Shown: positions 15,001 through 48,000 of the stretch, piece after piece
Numbering within the stretch: position 1 is the first letter of the stretch
Layout of the letters: the number at the start of each line of letters is the position of its first letter
NCBI RefSeq assembly: GCF_026571515.1
Contig: NW_026867228.1
Span: 124,001-188,000, forward strand
Length of the DNA: 64,000 bases
Source: Ruditapes philippinarum
Taxonomy: Eukaryota
Direction: 5' to 3'
Position numbers: made by a program

Positions 15001-18000
15001 CTTGCCTGCAGCCCCGGATACCACTAGGTTCTTTTAAAATCATTTTTCACATTGAAATGATTTTCTAATTTTTTACCTCTCAGAATGAATTGTACGAATG
15101 TATGTATTTGGCGTATAAGCAGCTACGCCACAGAATTGAATTATTAACTTACTTTGTTTCCTCCCAGCTTAATGTCACTGGATCTTTTGGTAATTTTTTC
15201 ATATCATTACTTTCTGAATCTCCACCAGCAATTGCCTCCCCATTGCTCACTGGCTTTTCTTCACTGGGTTCACTCCCTTGGTCTTGATCAGGCAGTGAGA
15301 GTTCCTCCCCTTGATTTTTAGCAGCAGTTTTCTCACCATCCTTTATAACTGTAATAAACAAGACTAATATAAATATGTATGATTTTAAGTTTACAAAAAG
15401 GGACATACATGTAAGTAGCAACAAGCACTGTTTGTCTTCCTTGTGCAAGAATCAAAATGATTAATGTTTATTAAGAAGAGCTTAGGCCTAGTAGATAAGG
15501 CGTTAGCCTCTTGACCCAGAAAACCAAGCAGGGTTTATGACCGATTTCGTTTCCTCAAAATTATGGAACCAGTATTGATTATTTCAAAAAATGTGGTCTC
15601 AAGAATGGTTTAAATAAGTTTACCTGTAAGCTTTGTCCTTATTTTGACTGAAGCTAATGGACACTAGTAAATAAATATATACAGACCCTGGTATGACAAC
15701 AAACATGCTCCTACTTTAAAACTTACCAATATAATCAAGCTTTTGTAACTGAGGTAAATTTCTGATCACTGTCATTCTATAGTTGTCCCCCACCGCACAA
15801 GGATTATCTGAGAGCCAAAGGATGCGTAACTTTTCCAAGCCTTTAAGATAGCATATATCTGTTAACTCCTGTATTTTATTATTCCTTATGTACAGTTCTT
15901 GTAGGTTCTCACATACTTCAAACTCTTTCAAAGTAATGATGTCATTTACACTGAAATAAATACAGGAAAATTAAACATGAACATTTTAACAGATAGAAGC
16001 AGTTACCAGAATAATCAAGATATTTAACAGATCTATGTCTGGTTAACTCACAAATAGCTTTCAATAATAGATAAAACTGAATGCATTTGATCAGTTTCAT
16101 TATTAATTACTAAATTTACCAATATCATTTATAAAGGCAGTAAACACACATACATAGATAACTATTTACATCTCTGGTTAACACAATGAAAATTGATCTT
16201 ATAACTTCAAAATCATATTCTTATGAGGACTTAATAACAACAACTGTTAACAAAACAGCCTTTTTTCAATTAAAAAATGAGTATTACCTGACACTACATA
16301 TTTCTAAATTTGGCATTTCTCTTACAATGCTGATATCATCTATCTCTGAACCCCTGAAATATAAAGTTTATAATCACAGTGTGAAATATAAGGATACTCA
16401 GTGTGATCAGGGTCTTTCAAATAGAATGGTCTGGACTTAGACCAATTTTACAACAAAAAGATGTCGCGGCTGAGTCCCTTGATTAAGTTATCTATCGATA
16501 GTGATGTACATCACTGTTCAAAAATCAAATTATAAGATTACTGTTTATTCGATCAAAAATAAGTTGGTTACTCATTTACTGAAAACTAATCCTGGCTACA
16601 TTACATTATCATTTTTTACTTTAAAAAGTAACAATTTTATAAAAATAGAAGCATCGACATGTGTTACATTTTCTAGCAGTCACAGATAATATAAATACCG
16701 TGATATCATAGAACCCATGATATCATATGAATTGAGTATATTTAATTTGCGCCCTGTTCTTGAACACTTACATAAAATGACTGTGCATACACCTGTTCAC
16801 TGTATAGCAAACTATACCGAGTCATACCACGTGTTTAATTGTAGCGAGGATTTACACTGTGCGTTTCCAAACTTCTATTTGAAAGACCCTTGTTTGATTA
16901 AAATTTGACCATCCATGGTTGGAATGTCGGACGTTTCACTCCCACTAAAAATGCTTTACTCCCAGAGTAGTGTACACCTAGACATTTCATTCCAAATATT
17001 TACATGTAATTTTGAGATATTGAATTGGTAAAAAAATAAACAAATTTACTTTCATTAATGCATGTTTGTTAAAATGATAATTTAACTGTCAACTGCCCGG
17101 ACGGATTTATATCCGAATGTTGCGTACTTAACCTTATGCTACTAGAAAAAAGTTATTATTCTGAAATTTATATAAAACACCATCTTTAAACGTACCAGCA
17201 ATTAAGCTTTCGAACACTTTCAAGATCAGGAGCTCGAGTACGAGCCAAAACAATAGGACCTGTCAAACTGTTCAATGTTGCACTGGCACCAGAGTCCTAA
17301 AATAATCATAAATACCCATATAACACAAACTGCCCGAAATATTATCCGAAAAAAATTGCAGACACACCCCCGTATATATACTGTCATATATAGTTTTCAC
17401 ATGGTATTGAACCTTTTCGACAGTGGGTACGATCTAACATTCCAACTGCAAAAGGGAGATAAACACCGGTCTCGATTCATAGAATAAACATTTATCTACA
17501 ATGCTGGTAAACAATAATTTCTCAACTTTTACCGTTCCTACATTTTTTATCGAAATTCTCACTTTTGTTTTTTTCGCAGAAAGCTTCTGTTACCATAAAC
17601 TTGCGGTTTAGTTGTTGTTGTTGTTGTGGTCGATTTGTTACAATACCGTTCAGCTGAACCTACACATTCGCAATTTTAAAAGCAGTTTTCAAAAGGAACA
17701 CTCTATCGTCTTTATATAACCGCTAAATTCTTCTACGTGGCGATATACTATTATAAATAAAATCTTTGATAAGAACATTTAAACGTGCAACTGCACATTA
17801 TGCCTCAGAAATCAATATTTACTTAATTCTTTAGAAATGTTAAACACCTCTTTAATAATGTTTTAATAATGGATTTGTGCAGCTGAATGATGTAGTGCTA
17901 ATTGTGCATTAATGTGTTGTAAAGGTAGCAAAACTGTAAATAAAACAGCATTTTGACTTCCATACAAAATACTTATTCATTATAATTATACTAATTGCCA

Positions 18001-45000: not shown

Positions 45001-48000
45001 TGCCTTTGGCGACATTTGATCATCCATTATACCAATGAGATTTTAACAGTCAAATATAATTTTTACCAATAATCAAAGTGCATATACGCACAACAATGAC
45101 TAATTGCACATGTTTCGTTTATTCTAAAACTTATTTTTCTGAAACACAATTTCAAAGTTGAAAATTCTAGGTGGCGACAGTAACGTATGTTACATTTTAG
45201 GGCATTAATGGTACTTGTAAAAGAAAAATAACAGATAGAAATGTAAAACTGAGAGTGTCCCTATTAGACAAAGTGGCAGCCACCTTTCTAACGACATTTT
45301 GACCTCAAGAAAAACCTTCGTATAAGAGCTACCCAGTGGAACATCAAATGCTGTGTTTTATTGAGAATGAGCGGTTACCTTACGATCGACCTGAGGCCAT
45401 TTTTAGCCTGTCACATGTCCAAATTTTTTTTGGCGATTGACCCCCTTCAAACCCCCGAAACAGAAGGGGGCACATCCTCCTTCTGGCAACCCCCTAATCT
45501 ACAGTTTTGATAGGGGTGGCGCCGAAAAAGGTGATCACTTTTTTAAGAACATTTCCCAAACGAAAAACTGTGTTTGGGGTCTAAATATGGTAATTTTTCA
45601 CTGTTTGAGGCCTCAAAAAAGGAGGGGGTCGAAAAGCCGTCAAACACGTCTATATGAGGTAAAATGTTAAGTTTCCTAAAATGTAGTATTTCGTAATGCG
45701 TTTTTGCCCTACTTAGTCATAATAGCAAAGTTACAGCCAGTTACAGCCAAAAAAATGAAAATTTCAATAATTTGACCTTCAAAGTAAAGGTCATTTATGA
45801 GTGAATGTCAAGGTCTGTCTGGTTATTTTTAAGGGTTATCCTTGAAGATTATTATGTTCAAGTATATATATGAAATACCGCATACGTTGAACAGGATTTA
45901 GCAATGCAATAACTTCCGGTCAAAATGGAAACAACATTGAACAGTTTGACAGGTCCTATTGTTTTGGCTCGTACTCGAGCTCCTGATCTTGAAAGTGTTC
46001 GAAAGCTTAATTGCTGGTACGTTTAAAGATGTTGTTTTATATTTCAGAATAATAAAATTTTCCAAGTATCATAAAATTATTTTAAGTACGCAACATTCGG
46101 ATATAAATCCGTCCGGATAGTTGACAGTTTAATTATCATTTAAACAAACGAACATTAATGAAAGTAGATTTGTTTATTTTTTACCTATTTAATATCTCAA
46201 AATTACATGTATATATTTGGAATGAAATGTCTAGGTGTACAATGCTCTGGGAGTAAAACATTTTTAGTGGGAGTGAAACGTCCGACAATTTTAATATAAC
46301 CAGGGTCTTTCAAATAGAATGGTTTGGAAATGCACGGGTTAAATCCTCGCTTCAATTAAAAATGTCGCGGTATGACTTGGTATAGTTTGCTATATATATA
46401 TACACATTTTATGTAAGTGTTGAAGAACAGGGTGCAAATTAAATATACTCAATCACAGGTGCTTGAAACAAACTTTTTAAAGTTTTATATGGGCTATATA
46501 TACTATAATAAGATATACATATATAGACCGGTTATGTAAAATATTTGATTATGTGACTAGCGCCTGTGTACTCAATTCTTATGATATCACAGTATTTACA
46601 TTTTCTGTGACTGCTAGAAAATGTAAATGTAACACATATCGATGCTTCTATTTTTATTAAATTGTTACTTTTTAAAGTAAAAACTGATAATGTAATGTAG
46701 CCAGGATTAGTTTTCAGTAATTTTTGATCAAATAAACAGAAATCTTATACTTTGATTTTTGAACAGTGGTGTGCTACACCAGATAACTATCGATAGATAC
46801 AAATGTAACTTAATCATGTGACTCAGCTGAGACATCTTCAATGTCGTAAAATTGGTCCAACTCCAGACCATTCTATTTGAAAGACCCTGATCAAACTGAG
46901 TATCTTCATATTCCACACTGTGATTATAAACTTTATATTTCAGGGGTTCAGAGATAGATGATATCAGCATTGTGAGAGAAATGCCAAATTTAGAAATATG
47001 TAGTGTCAGGTAATCAATCTATTCATTTTTTAATGAAAAAAGGCAGTTGTTGCCTTGTGGGTGAAAGTGGTTTTGTCAAACTACCGGTTTAGCGAACTTA
47101 TCTTATGTAATAAAAAGGTTGTGGTTTCGGAGAACTTATTTTATAGTGTTAAAAATATCTATTGTATACTGGGCACGTCAATTATGGTATGTGTTAATTT
47201 GTAAAGAAAACGTTGATACAAAAATAAATATCTTTTAATATATAACATAAGATTGACACACCTCTTCATAAATTAAGTTCCCCGAACCGGTTGTTCGCTG
47301 GAACCACCATAATTCTGCCTTGTTCACAGTTGTTGCTATTAAATCTTAAATAAGTATCTGAAATTAGGAGATAAATTGTCATTGTGTTTGCCTTTAGAAA
47401 TGATATCCGTAAATTTAGTATTTAGCAATGAAACTGATCAAATGCATTTAGTTCTGTCTTTTATTGAAAGCTTTTTAAGAGTATTGTTAATCAGACTTCT
47501 ACATTTTGTATCTTGATTATTCTTGTCACTGTTACAACTATTAAAATGGTTATTAATGCAAATTTTCCTGTATTTCAGTGTTAACGATATCACAACCTTG
47601 AAAGACTTTGAAGCATGTGAGAATCTACAAGAACTGTACATAAGGAATAATAAAATACAGGAGTTAACAGATATATGCTACCTTAAAGGCTTGGAAAAGT
47701 TACGCATCCTTTGGCTCTCAGATAATCCTTGTGCGGTGGGGGACAACTATAGAATGACTGTCATCAGAAATTTACCTCAGTTACAAAAGCTTGATAATGT
47801 TGGTAAGTTTTAAAGTAGGAGCATGTTTGTTGTCATACCAGGGTCTGTATACATTTATTTACTAGTGTCCATTAGTTTCAGTCAAAATAGACCTTCATAA
47901 GGACAAAGCTTACAGATAAACTTTCTTGAGACAACTTCTTTGAACTTATCAATATTGGTGCCATAGTTATGAGGAAACGAAATAGGTCATAAACCCTGCT

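What the first reader, a model, noticed from the sequence alone, without database searches (positions are those of the whole stretch)
15951..47578. Mosaic arm identity suggests arm-to-arm gene conversion
Seen (by eye): CFAP410 intron 2 (15951-16287 vs 47010-47578) aligns at roughly 75-85%. In contrast, ~18500-20700 vs ~39550-41700, ~22800-23640 vs ~35590-36420 and ~26100-26700 vs ~32570-33170 are near-identical non-coding tracts; the spurious ORFs at 26187 and 32876 differ by one residue. A single duplication event should give roughly uniform neutral divergence. Inference: patches have been re-homogenised by conversion, as known for Y-chromosome palindromes, while the C1q domain exon and the CFAP410 genes escaped it.
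Basis: partly seen in the sequence, partly recalled or inferred. Interest (0 to 1): 0.7.

Follow-up and report, generated by a model that had tools for sequence, protein, structure and literature searches.

The report
Patchy conversion between inverted gene duplicates
Two mirror-image copies of a segment carrying a cilia gene and an immune-type C1q gene differ by 7-17% over most of their length but by only about 1.5% in three stretches, the footprint expected if the copies occasionally overwrite one another, a well-known process seen here in what looks like an invertebrate genome.

Summary
The window holds an inverted duplication (left arm 9648-30731, right arm 50326-31717, ~1-kb spacer). Each arm carries a CFAP410-like gene and a C1q-domain exon. 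Over 12,159 aligned columns, uniform divergence is rejected (chi2 p=2e-44). The inner background is 92-94% and outer non-coding sequence 83-92%. The contrast survives strict gap filtering, CpG removal and per-tract permutation. The tracts diverge less than the nonsynonymous sites of the conserved CFAP410-like exons, hold no ORF with a Pfam domain, and have fewer indels, so constraint is unlikely. The outer flanks share no homology, so a false join of two haplotypes is unlikely. Patchy arm-to-arm gene conversion is the best explanation (about 0.7). It is unproven: I had no outgroup, reads or population data. The CFAP410 region is itself heterogeneous, so "escaped" holds only partly. The C-terminal half of the C1q exon is hyper-divergent (14.6%, omega about 1). 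Mosaic divergence from conversion between paralogues is well documented, so this is a new example, of modest interest.

The parts
9648..30731 (.). Left arm of the inverted duplication, including left-only insertions
   Evidence: Self-BLAST minus-strand HSPs; block alignment; innermost block 29938-30731 vs 32499-31717, 96.1% ungapped
31717..50326 (.). Right arm of the inverted duplication, including right-only insertions
30732..31716 (.). Spacer (~985 bp) between the arms
   Evidence: Gap between the innermost HSP ends
18703..20711 (.). High-identity tract T1, left copy (98.5%; 29 mismatches of 1980)
   Evidence: Segmentation; LLR segment score 30.3, reached in 0 of 1000 permutations
39559..41539 (.). 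High-identity tract T1, right copy
22752..23507 (.). High-identity tract T2, left copy (98.0%; 15 of 740). Significant core 23165-23516 (2 of 352)
   Evidence: core reached in 5 of 1000 permutations
35734..36477 (.). High-identity tract T2, right copy
25907..26765 (.). High-identity tract T3, left copy (98.6%; 12 of 849). Core 26085-26732 (5 of 648). Holds the 308-bp perfect run and a 32-bp tandem duplication
32500..33355 (.). High-identity tract T3, right copy
24054..24452 (+). C1q-domain exon (last exon, with stop), left copy. Acceptor TTCAG|
   Evidence: Pfam C1q PF00386 E=1.7e-18; PDB C1q-family hits; acceptor
34812..35210 (-). C1q-domain exon, right copy. 40 of 399 nt and 23 of 133 aa differ from the left copy
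   Evidence: Pfam C1q E=1.4e-16
10034..17280 (-). CFAP410-like gene, left copy (exon 1 part 17196-17280, exon 2 ~16288-16352, LRR exon ~15733-15955, mid exon ~15152-15340, last coding exon 10034-~10130). No in-frame ATG in exon 1
45925..49936 (+). CFAP410-like gene, right copy (ATG 45925; LRR exon within 47517-47813; last exon ends at stop 49936)
   Evidence: last exon's only PDB hit is 8axr_A CFAP410
10166..13978 (.). Left-only 3.8-kb insertion in a CFAP410-like intron. Terminal inverted repeats match at 17 of 20 (ends 10164/13980)
26766..29933 (.). Left-only ~3.2-kb insertion at the inner edge of T3, flanked by a TAAGT duplication. Holds 202-223-bp tandem repeats
38100..39022 (.). Right-only 0.9-kb insertion (empty site at left 21213/21214)
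42639..45931 (.). Right-arm 3.3-kb non-homologous segment, opposite 360 bp at left 17281-17640. Marks the step between outer and inner divergence levels and abuts exon 1 of the CFAP410-like gene
31717..32620 (.). ~135-bp satellite array at the centre of the palindrome (left counterparts 26650-26823 and 29772-30731)

Best explanation
A single ancestral segment was duplicated in inverted orientation. It carried a CFAP410-like gene head-to-head with a C1q-domain gene and was about 17 kb before later insertions. The copies then diverged, by up to about 13-17% at the least constrained sites, and each acquired its own transposon insertions. Since then, double-strand breaks in one arm have occasionally been repaired using the other arm as template. 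This is non-crossover, intrachromosomal gene conversion, and it overwrites stretches of 0.35-2 kb. The most recent events (or one event with patchy mismatch repair) produced three tracts that are now only about 1.5% diverged. Older events left intermediate levels: about 4% at 17746-18702 and in the central satellite, about 7% over the rest of the inner 9 kb, and about 8% in CFAP410-like introns 1 and 3. Conversion needs near-identical sequence, so already-diverged segments convert less and less while recently converted tracts stay convertible. That gives a stable mosaic. The C-terminal half of the C1q domain stays the most diverged part of the inner region. Either conversions there are removed by selection, or it evolves fast under relaxed or diversifying selection. 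Shown here: the inverted duplication, the significant mosaic and the gene content. Inferred: conversion as the cause, its timing, and the role of selection at C1q.
For: Structure: collinear inverted arms. Non-uniformity: p=1.9e-44 overall and 2.3e-26 for the inner blocks. BIC-like segmentation gives 8 segments, against 1 segment in 10 of 10 shuffles. Per-tract LLR test: T1 0/1000, T3 core 0/1000, T2 core 5/1000. Robustness: with columns within 5 of a gap removed, tracts are 1.3-1.6%, inner background 6.6-8.0% and outer 10.3%. At non-CpG sites the rates are 1.45%, 6.5% and 10.1% (tracts vs background p=2e-29; outer vs inner p=2e-6). Against constraint: pooled tract divergence (1.57%) is below dN of the CFAP410-like exons (0.027 and 0.042). 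0 of the 7 tract ORFs tested reached a Pfam cut-off (6 of 10 queries and 1 of 10 lie in the left-arm tracts; the right-arm ORF 40387-40620 also had no family). No Rfam or tRNA hit. T3 holds a tandem duplication and satellite. Indel events are also depleted, 3.9 vs 9.3 per kb, p=0.003. T1 and T2 have no third copy in the window. The three tracts fit one age (chi2=1.28, p=0.53) and are slightly GC-richer (33.4 vs 30.9%, p=0.02), as GC-biased conversion would give. The arms are old and real: arm-specific insertions with TIRs or a target-site duplication, CFAP410-like dS 0.11-0.22, and non-homologous outer flanks (0 hits). Precedent: mosaic divergence from interlocus conversion in copepod GOT1 paralogues (PMC3728101, abstract) and A. 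halleri HMA4 (bioRxiv 10.1101/2025.10.29.685298, abstract); conversion between inverted hsp16 modules in C. elegans (PMC3966223, passages).
Against: There is no outgroup, so I could not show that the arms are each other's closest relatives within the tracts but not outside them, nor polarise changes for direction or GC bias. There are no reads, so a polishing or collapse artefact is not excluded. Substitutions are reduced 4.3-fold in the tracts but indel events only 2.4-fold; a pure age difference predicts equal factors, though only 14 indels are involved. Only 2 of 6 tract edges lie next to a heterology, and identity does not rise toward the centre (rho=-0.26, p=0.078), so nothing positional supports a specific mechanism. 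Simple-repeat loci were too few to test (5 in tracts, 3 outside, p=1.0). The upstream exons of the C1q gene were not found, so T1 or T2 may hold a short exon, promoter or UTR. The GC excess is small and could be compositional.
Confidence: 0.7

Rival explanations
1. Assembly or polishing artefact. The arms are real, but reads from one arm were mis-assigned to the other during consensus or polishing, which falsely homogenised patches.
For: This cannot be excluded without reads. Two of the length differences seen inside T1 are single-base homopolymer differences (T7/T6, A7/A6), the kind of difference sequencing error produces.
Against: The tracts are 98.0-98.6% identical, not 100%, and still carry 56 substitutions and 14 indel events. 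Flanking divergence of ~7% with frequent indels should let long reads be placed unambiguously. The tracts are 0.75-2 kb, longer than short reads. No N runs or gaps occur in the window.
Confidence: 0.12
2. Purifying selection. The three tracts are functional non-coding elements (promoter, enhancer, UTR, unannotated exon or non-coding RNA) conserved in both copies since the duplication.
For: T1 and T2 lie between the divergently oriented CFAP410-like and C1q genes, where regulatory DNA and the missing 5' exon(s) of the C1q gene are expected. The known exons of the CFAP410-like gene are indeed more conserved than its introns.
Against: Constraint would have to remove ~80-85% of all substitutions over 0.75-2 kb of contiguous AT-rich DNA. 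That is stronger than at nonsynonymous sites of the CFAP410-like exons (tracts 1.57% vs dN 2.7-4.2%). No Pfam, Rfam or tRNA signal was found. T3 consists partly of a 32-bp tandem duplication and the start of a satellite array. The C1q coding exon itself is among the most diverged segments.
Confidence: 0.08
3. Regional differences in mutation rate, for example methylated gene body versus unmethylated intergenic DNA, or replication or transcription effects, with no exchange between the arms.
For: CpG columns mismatch at 11.2% versus 4.3% for other columns. CpG density is lower in the CFAP410-like gene body (3.0% of columns vs 5.3-5.5%). This is compatible with gene-body methylation there.
Against: Removing CpG columns leaves the contrasts intact (10.1 / 6.5 / 1.45%; var/mean 4.27). 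A 4- to 5-fold rate change with sharp edges, alternating three times within 8 kb, is not a known property of regional mutation rates (my general knowledge). Ts/tv is about 1 in every class.
Confidence: 0.05
4. Nested or stepwise duplication. Different parts of the arms were copied at different times, so the divergence levels reflect several duplication ages.
For: There is a step between the outer level (~10%) and the inner level (~4-7%) exactly at a non-homologous replacement (L17281-17640 / R42639-45931).
Against: The young tracts alternate with older sequence in perfect collinearity. Replacing an internal piece of one arm with a copy of the other arm is gene conversion by definition. No junction sequences or extra copies exist in the window.
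Confidence: 0.04
5. False inverted join of two allelic haplotypes. The mosaic would then reflect variation in coalescence time along one heterozygous locus.
For: Highly heterozygous invertebrate genomes are prone to retained haplotigs (my general knowledge). A mosaic of divergence is what recombining alleles show.
Against: The sequences outside the arms (1-9647 and 50327-64000) share no detectable homology, 0 BLAST hits at E<=1e-3, whereas alleles would continue to match. Synonymous divergence of 0.11-0.22 and four arm-specific insertions or replacements of 0.9-3.8 kb are very high for alleles. No gap lies at the centre.
Confidence: 0.02

Closest known systems
Interlocus (non-allelic) gene conversion giving mosaic divergence between paralogues, e.g. 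GOT1p1/GOT1p2 in the copepod Tigriopus californicus (PMC3728101) and the HMA4 copies of Arabidopsis halleri (bioRxiv 10.1101/2025.10.29.685298)
   Same: Regions of low divergence alternate with regions of high divergence between linked paralogues. Islands of divergence are read as regions where selection or sequence divergence blocks conversion (abstracts read).
   Different: Those cases rest on several populations or haplotypes and concern mainly the genes themselves. HMA4 is a tandem array. Here the evidence is a single sequence, the copies are inverted, and the converted tracts are apparently non-coding while a coding exon is the most diverged part.
Arm-to-arm gene conversion in large sex-chromosome palindromes (primate Y and X, mouse X, willow and poplar sex chromosomes)
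   Same: Inverted-repeat arms longer than 10 kb with a short spacer carry paired genes, and intrachromosomal conversion occurs between the arms (abstract starts listed: 10.1101/800185, PMC8600007, PMC8327919, PMC8981503, PMC7023750).
   Different: Those palindromes are described as >99% identical (same abstracts). Here overall identity is 94.0%, with only 3.6 kb of 12.2 kb aligned in young tracts. Chromosomal context (sex-linked or not) and testis expression are unknown. The genes are a ciliary gene and an immune-type lectin-like gene.
Inverted hsp16 modules and other adjacent inverted paralogues of Caenorhabditis elegans (reviewed in PMC3966223)
   Same: An invertebrate head-to-head gene pair duplicated as an inverted repeat with a short spacer, in which conversion was invoked to explain identity (passages read).
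   Different: The hsp16 modules are 1.9 kb and 100% identical across the module. Here the arms are ~17-21 kb and mostly diverged.
Local duplication and diversification of C1q-domain-containing (C1qDC) genes in bivalves (PMC6835236)
   Same: The C1q domain is encoded in a terminal exon. [quoted passage not shown] Here 31 of the 40 nucleotide differences lie in the last 213 bp.
   Different: That paper describes mostly same-strand tandem arrays, and the word 'conversion' occurs 0 times in it. Here the pair is inverted and was co-duplicated with a neighbouring CFAP410-like gene. That this window comes from a bivalve is my guess, not a result.

Membership tests
Interlocus gene conversion tracts between paralogues | Stretches significantly more similar than expected from the divergence of the flanking paralogous sequence (the GENECONV-type criterion described in PMC3966223) | tested here: met
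   Longest perfect run 308 bp, 0 of 5000 permutations. LLR segments: T1 0/1000, T3 core 0/1000, T2 core 5/1000. Segmentation gives 8 segments vs 1 in 10 of 10 shuffles.
Interlocus gene conversion tracts between paralogues | Phylogenetic incongruence: paralogues group within the species in the tract but by orthology outside it | not testable with these tools
   No eukaryotic genome collection was available.
Interlocus gene conversion tracts between paralogues | Polymorphisms shared between the paralogues in populations | not testable with these tools
   Only a single sequence was available.
Large palindrome maintained by arm-to-arm conversion (sex-chromosome type) | Inverted arms longer than 10 kb around a short spacer | tested here: met
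   Arms 9648-30731 and 31717-50326, spacer ~985 bp.
Large palindrome maintained by arm-to-arm conversion (sex-chromosome type) | Arm-to-arm identity above 99% (definition in the abstract of 10.1101/800185) | tested here: not met
   94.0% over 12,159 ungapped columns. Only the 26100-26700 range reaches 99.2%.
Large palindrome maintained by arm-to-arm conversion (sex-chromosome type) | Location on a sex chromosome, with testis-biased gene families | not testable with these tools
   Chromosome and expression are unknown.
C1q-domain-containing gene (C1qDC) | Globular C1q domain above the Pfam gathering score | tested here: met
   PF00386: 67.5 and 61.3 bits vs cut-off 23.7. PDB hits to C1q, cerebellin, adiponectin and C1q-like proteins.
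C1q-domain-containing gene (C1qDC) | Upstream exon(s) encoding a signal peptide, with or without a coiled-coil or collagen region | tested here: inconclusive
   A scan for ATG plus a hydrophobic N-terminus in 17641-24053 gave 2 unconvincing candidates. No coding-like ORF in 21214-24060.
CFAP410 (cilia- and flagella-associated protein 410) | N-terminal leucine-rich-repeat domain | tested here: met
   LRR_4 and LRR_9 above cut-off. The exon aligns over residues 4-81 to 8axj_A residues 49-126, E=2.9e-11, among 133 LRR hits. That 8axj is a CFAP410 N-terminal domain is my recollection; the table names it only 'Chains: A'.
CFAP410 (cilia- and flagella-associated protein 410) | Short C-terminal helical domain | tested here: met
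   The last exon's only PDB hit is 8axr_A, 'Cilia- and flagella-associated protein 410', E=0.0043, 30 aligned residues.
CFAP410 (cilia- and flagella-associated protein 410) | Full-length spliced protein matching CFAP410 end to end | not tested
   Exons were searched one by one. The joined model was deliberately not built or searched.

The most novel reading that the evidence does not exclude
This is an invertebrate palindrome caught part-way through escaping concerted evolution. Conversion persists only in self-sustaining islands of near-identity. The three young tracts may be one long heteroduplex repaired in patches, since their ages are indistinguishable. Meanwhile the ligand-facing C-terminal half of an immune C1q domain is held apart, or driven apart, by selection against homogenisation. 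If so, the locus would be a natural system for measuring the identity threshold and tract structure of ectopic conversion in a mollusc-like genome. It would also show that conversion and diversifying selection jointly shape the large C1qDC immune repertoire.
Probability: 0.25. Interest if true: 0.45.

Novelty: new member of a known kind. Interest (0 to 1): 0.3.

Why it matters
If the conversion reading is right, divergence between local paralogues in this genome does not date their duplication. The young tracts would suggest an event about seven times more recent than the outer arm does (JC 0.016 vs 0.115). That matters for studies that date the expansion of C1q-domain immune genes from paralogue identity. 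The locus also shows a coding exon staying more diverged than its non-coding surroundings, the pattern expected where selection opposes homogenisation. The phenomenon itself is well known from other organisms, so the value is a clean, testable example rather than a new principle.

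Tried and rejected
1. Homopolymer and microsatellite length as a neutral fast marker: only 8 loci (2 of 5 identical in the tracts, 1 of 3 outside; p=1.0). Uninformative.
2. Gradient of identity toward the palindrome centre: rho=-0.26, p=0.078 over 48 windows; inner region alone rho=+0.20, p=0.24. Not supported.
3. Heterologies as tract boundaries: 2 of 6 edges. Anecdotal.
4. Search for the C1q gene's 5' exons by ATG plus hydrophobic start and by ORF inspection: nothing convincing.
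5. Pfam on the 6 tract ORFs among the 10 queries, plus 19580-19801 and its right-arm counterpart: none above cut-off. The weak PAP2 (E=0.033) hit for a tract ORF and the weak DUF1189 (E=5.9e-4) hit for an insertion ORF are both below their cut-offs.
6. Rfam at gathering threshold and ARAGORN over the whole window: 0 hits each.
7. AlphaFold2 on the single C1q exon, to place the variable residues: mean pLDDT 38.1, unusable. No fold search was run.
8. Automated terminal-inverted-repeat alignment for the five arm-specific segments was weak. A direct end comparison gave 17 of 20 for the 3.8-kb insert only.
9. dN/dS of the C-terminal half of the C1q exon: omega 1.06, bootstrap 0.46-3.15. This cannot separate positive selection, relaxed constraint and retained old divergence.
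10. Not used because unsuitable: genome contigs (bacteria and archaea only), search_dna_similar (phages, plasmids, E. coli), complex prediction, the protein-atlas search.
So no orthologue, outgroup or organism identification was possible. Supplementary files of the papers were not consulted.

Full report
WHAT THE WINDOW IS. The window has no N and 31% G+C. I do not take it for human. The composition, the satellite-rich repeats and the arrangement of a single-exon C1q domain beside a CFAP410-like gene look like an invertebrate genome. A mollusc is my guess, and no call shows it. No eukaryotic sequence collection was open to me, so the organism stays unidentified.

STRUCTURE. Self-BLAST shows collinear inverted homology from 9648 to 26765 on the left with 50326 to 32500 on the right. 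It resumes at 29934-30728 with 32504-31717. The arms are therefore about 9648-30731 and 31717-50326, around a spacer of ~985 bp. A ~135-bp satellite occupies the inner ends of both arms.

Four large arm-specific differences interrupt the collinearity:
- A left-only 3.8-kb insert (10166-13978), whose ends match as inverted repeats at 17 of 20 positions.
- A right-only 0.9-kb insert (38100-39022).
- A left-only ~3.2-kb insert (26766-29933), flanked by a TAAGT duplication that is single at the empty site.
- A non-homologous replacement, 360 bp on the left (17281-17640) against 3.3 kb on the right (42639-45931).

The sequences outside the arms (1-9647 and 50327-64000) share no homology, 0 hits.

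GENES, EXON BY EXON. The exons were searched one at a time. I left out the step of joining them into a spliced model and searching or folding that.

The C1q exons (left 24054-24452 plus strand; right 34812-35210 minus strand) score 67.5 and 61.3 bits on Pfam C1q, against a cut-off of 23.7. They hit C1q-family chains in the PDB. Their acceptor sites are conserved.

The outer part of each arm holds a CFAP410-like gene, pointing away from the centre. Its LRR exon matches Pfam LRR families and aligns almost end to end with 8axj_A among many LRR proteins. Its last coding exon has one PDB hit only, 8axr_A, named CFAP410 (E=0.0043). Exons 1 and 2 were recognised from conserved ORFs and splice signals.

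THE OBSERVATION. I aligned seven collinear blocks separately, giving 12,159 ungapped columns and 726 mismatches, or 94.0% identity. Divergence is strongly non-uniform: var/mean is 5.71 in 200-column windows, p=1.9e-44, and p=2.3e-26 within the inner blocks.

A penalised-likelihood segmentation at a BIC-like penalty gives eight segments, against one segment in 10 of 10 shuffles.

| Tract | Left arm | Right arm | Identity |
|---|---|---|---|
| T1 | 18703-20711 | 41539-39559 | 98.5% |
| T2 | 22752-23507 | 36477-35734 | 98.0% |
| T3 | 25907-26765 | 33355-32500 | 98.6% |

In a likelihood-ratio maximal-segment test, T1 and the T3 core were reached in 0 of 1000 permutations and the T2 core in 5 of 1000. 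The next three segments were not significant, at 391, 603 and 998 of 1000.

LEVELS OF DIVERGENCE. With columns near gaps removed:

| Region | Divergence |
|---|---|
| Three tracts | 1.3-1.6% |
| 17746-18702 | 4.0% |
| Inner background | 6.6-8.0% |
| C1q exon | 10.2% |
| Outer non-exonic sequence | 10.3% |

The innermost satellite block is 3.9% diverged on all ungapped columns, without that filter.

The outer region is heterogeneous too (p=4.8e-5). Intron 1 is 8.5% diverged, intron 2 17.3%, intron 3 8.0%, the downstream intron 13.5% and the 3' region 7.8%. Exon 1 is 100 of 100 identical.

RIVALS TESTED.
- CpG hypermutability does not explain the pattern. At non-CpG columns the rates are 10.1% (outer), 6.5% (inner background) and 1.45% (tracts).
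- Constraint is unlikely. The tracts diverge less than nonsynonymous sites of the CFAP410-like exons (dN 0.027 and 0.042, with omega 0.12 and 0.37). They have no ORF with a Pfam domain and no Rfam or tRNA hit. T3 includes a tandem duplication and the edge of a satellite. Indel events are depleted as well, 3.9 vs 9.3 per kb, p=0.003. The depletion is weaker for indels (2.4-fold) than for substitutions (4.3-fold), which I note as a mild discrepancy resting on 14 events.
- A false join of two haplotypes is unlikely, because the outer flanks are unrelated and synonymous divergence is 0.11-0.22.
- A polishing artefact cannot be tested without reads. The 56 substitutions and 14 indels remaining in the tracts argue against simple collapse.

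THE C1q EXON. The two copies differ at 40 of 399 nucleotides and 23 of 133 residues, with omega 0.92. The differences are concentrated in the last 213 bp: 31 differences, or 14.6%. That exceeds the exon's own flanks (7.4%, p=8e-4) and even the outer stratum (9.5%, p=0.023). There both dS (0.157) and dN (0.166) are high, with omega 1.06 and a bootstrap interval of 0.46-3.15. This fits either old divergence that was never overwritten or fast evolution under relaxed or diversifying selection. The data cannot choose between them. [quoted passage not shown]

MECHANISM. The best reading is recurrent, patchy, non-crossover repair of one arm from the other. The three young tracts have indistinguishable divergence (chi2=1.28, p=0.53). 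They may therefore stem from one event with discontinuous repair, or from a short burst. Their GC content is slightly higher than the background (33.4 vs 30.9%, p=0.02). That is the direction GC-biased conversion would give, but it is weak evidence. Identity does not rise toward the centre, and only 2 of 6 tract edges abut a heterology. The step from ~10% to ~4-7% falls at the 3.3-kb replacement beside CFAP410-like exon 1, so that heterology may have shielded the outer region. That conversion needs near-identity, so that diverged segments escape for good while converted ones stay convertible, comes from my recollection of theoretical work by Walsh and by Teshima and Innan.

WHAT IS KNOWN. Arm-to-arm conversion in sex-chromosome palindromes that are >99% identical is well described (search listing and abstract starts). 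Mosaic divergence due to interlocus conversion is described for copepod GOT1 paralogues (PMC3728101, abstract) and A. halleri HMA4 (bioRxiv 10.1101/2025.10.29.685298, abstract). Conversion between inverted paralogues is reviewed for C. elegans (PMC3966223, passages). A search for 'C1q domain' + 'bivalve' + 'gene conversion' found 1 paper holding all three terms, by its title a general immunity review that I did not read. The oyster C1qDC paper contains the word 'conversion' 0 times. The locus fails the >99% criterion of the sex-chromosome palindromes (94.0%). I therefore file it as interlocus conversion between inverted segmental duplicates, a new example of a known kind.

WHAT STAYED UNCHECKED. 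Orthologues or an outgroup, read support, population data, expression, the C1q gene's upstream exons, the organism, and the papers' supplementary files.

VERDICT. Confidence in conversion is about 0.7, and interest is 0.3.

Noticed in passing
window 17181-17340 and 45872-46031: Exon 1 of the CFAP410-like gene is 100/100 identical between the arms, but homology stops 7 bp downstream of the right copy's ATG (45925-45927). The left copy has unrelated upstream sequence, a stop just upstream and no in-frame ATG in that exon, though a possible AG acceptor is present. So the left copy either uses a different first exon or is 5'-truncated, even though its LRR exon shows omega 0.12.
   Followed up: partly
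window 10164-13980: A 3.8-kb left-arm-only insertion sits in an intron of the CFAP410-like gene. Its terminal inverted repeats match at 17 of 20 positions. No ORF with a Pfam hit was found in the two ORFs tested. It is probably a non-autonomous DNA transposon that inserted after the duplication.
   Followed up: partly
window 26766-29933: A ~3.2-kb left-arm-only insertion inside the central satellite is flanked by a TAAGT duplication that is single at the empty site on the right arm. It contains tandem repeats of 202-223 bp (28453-29104).
   Followed up: partly
window 26650-26823, 29772-30731, 31717-32620: Arrays of a ~135-bp satellite form the inner ends of both arms, so the palindrome centre is a satellite in inverted orientation around a ~1-kb spacer. 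This may bear on how the inverted duplication arose.
   Followed up: no
window 63720-63998 (+): An open frame running off the window's end encodes a BTB/POZ domain (PF00651, E=4.6e-7, 30.4 bits vs cut-off 20.5), probably an exon of a neighbouring gene.
   Followed up: partly
window 55157-55937 and 56125-56773: Two adjacent tandem arrays with periods of 166 bp (4.8 copies, 87% matches) and ~174 bp lie outside the arms.
   Followed up: no
window 131-1225 and 7930-9104: A direct repeat of ~1.1-1.2 kb at 77.8% identity lies left of the palindrome, probably two copies of a dispersed repeat.
   Followed up: no
window 17793-18115, 42217-42450, 48406-48771, 60542-60724: A dispersed repeat family has one syntenic pair inside the arms, a right-arm-only copy opposite the unalignable stretch 14829-15135, and a fourth copy outside the arms, at 67-73% identity. 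It could serve as a rough internal outgroup for the 17.8-18.1 kb segment, but not for the young tracts.
   Followed up: no
window 10034-10168 vs 49802-49936: The last coding exon of the CFAP410-like gene differs by a one-codon deletion in the left copy (AVLLVKEL vs AVLILVKEL) and one further residue near the C-terminus.
   Followed up: no
window 14079-17280 vs 17746-26765: CpG-containing columns make up 3.0% of the CFAP410-like gene body but 5.3-5.5% of the inner region. CpG columns mismatch 2.6 times as often as others. This is compatible with gene-body methylation of the ciliary gene only.
   Followed up: partly
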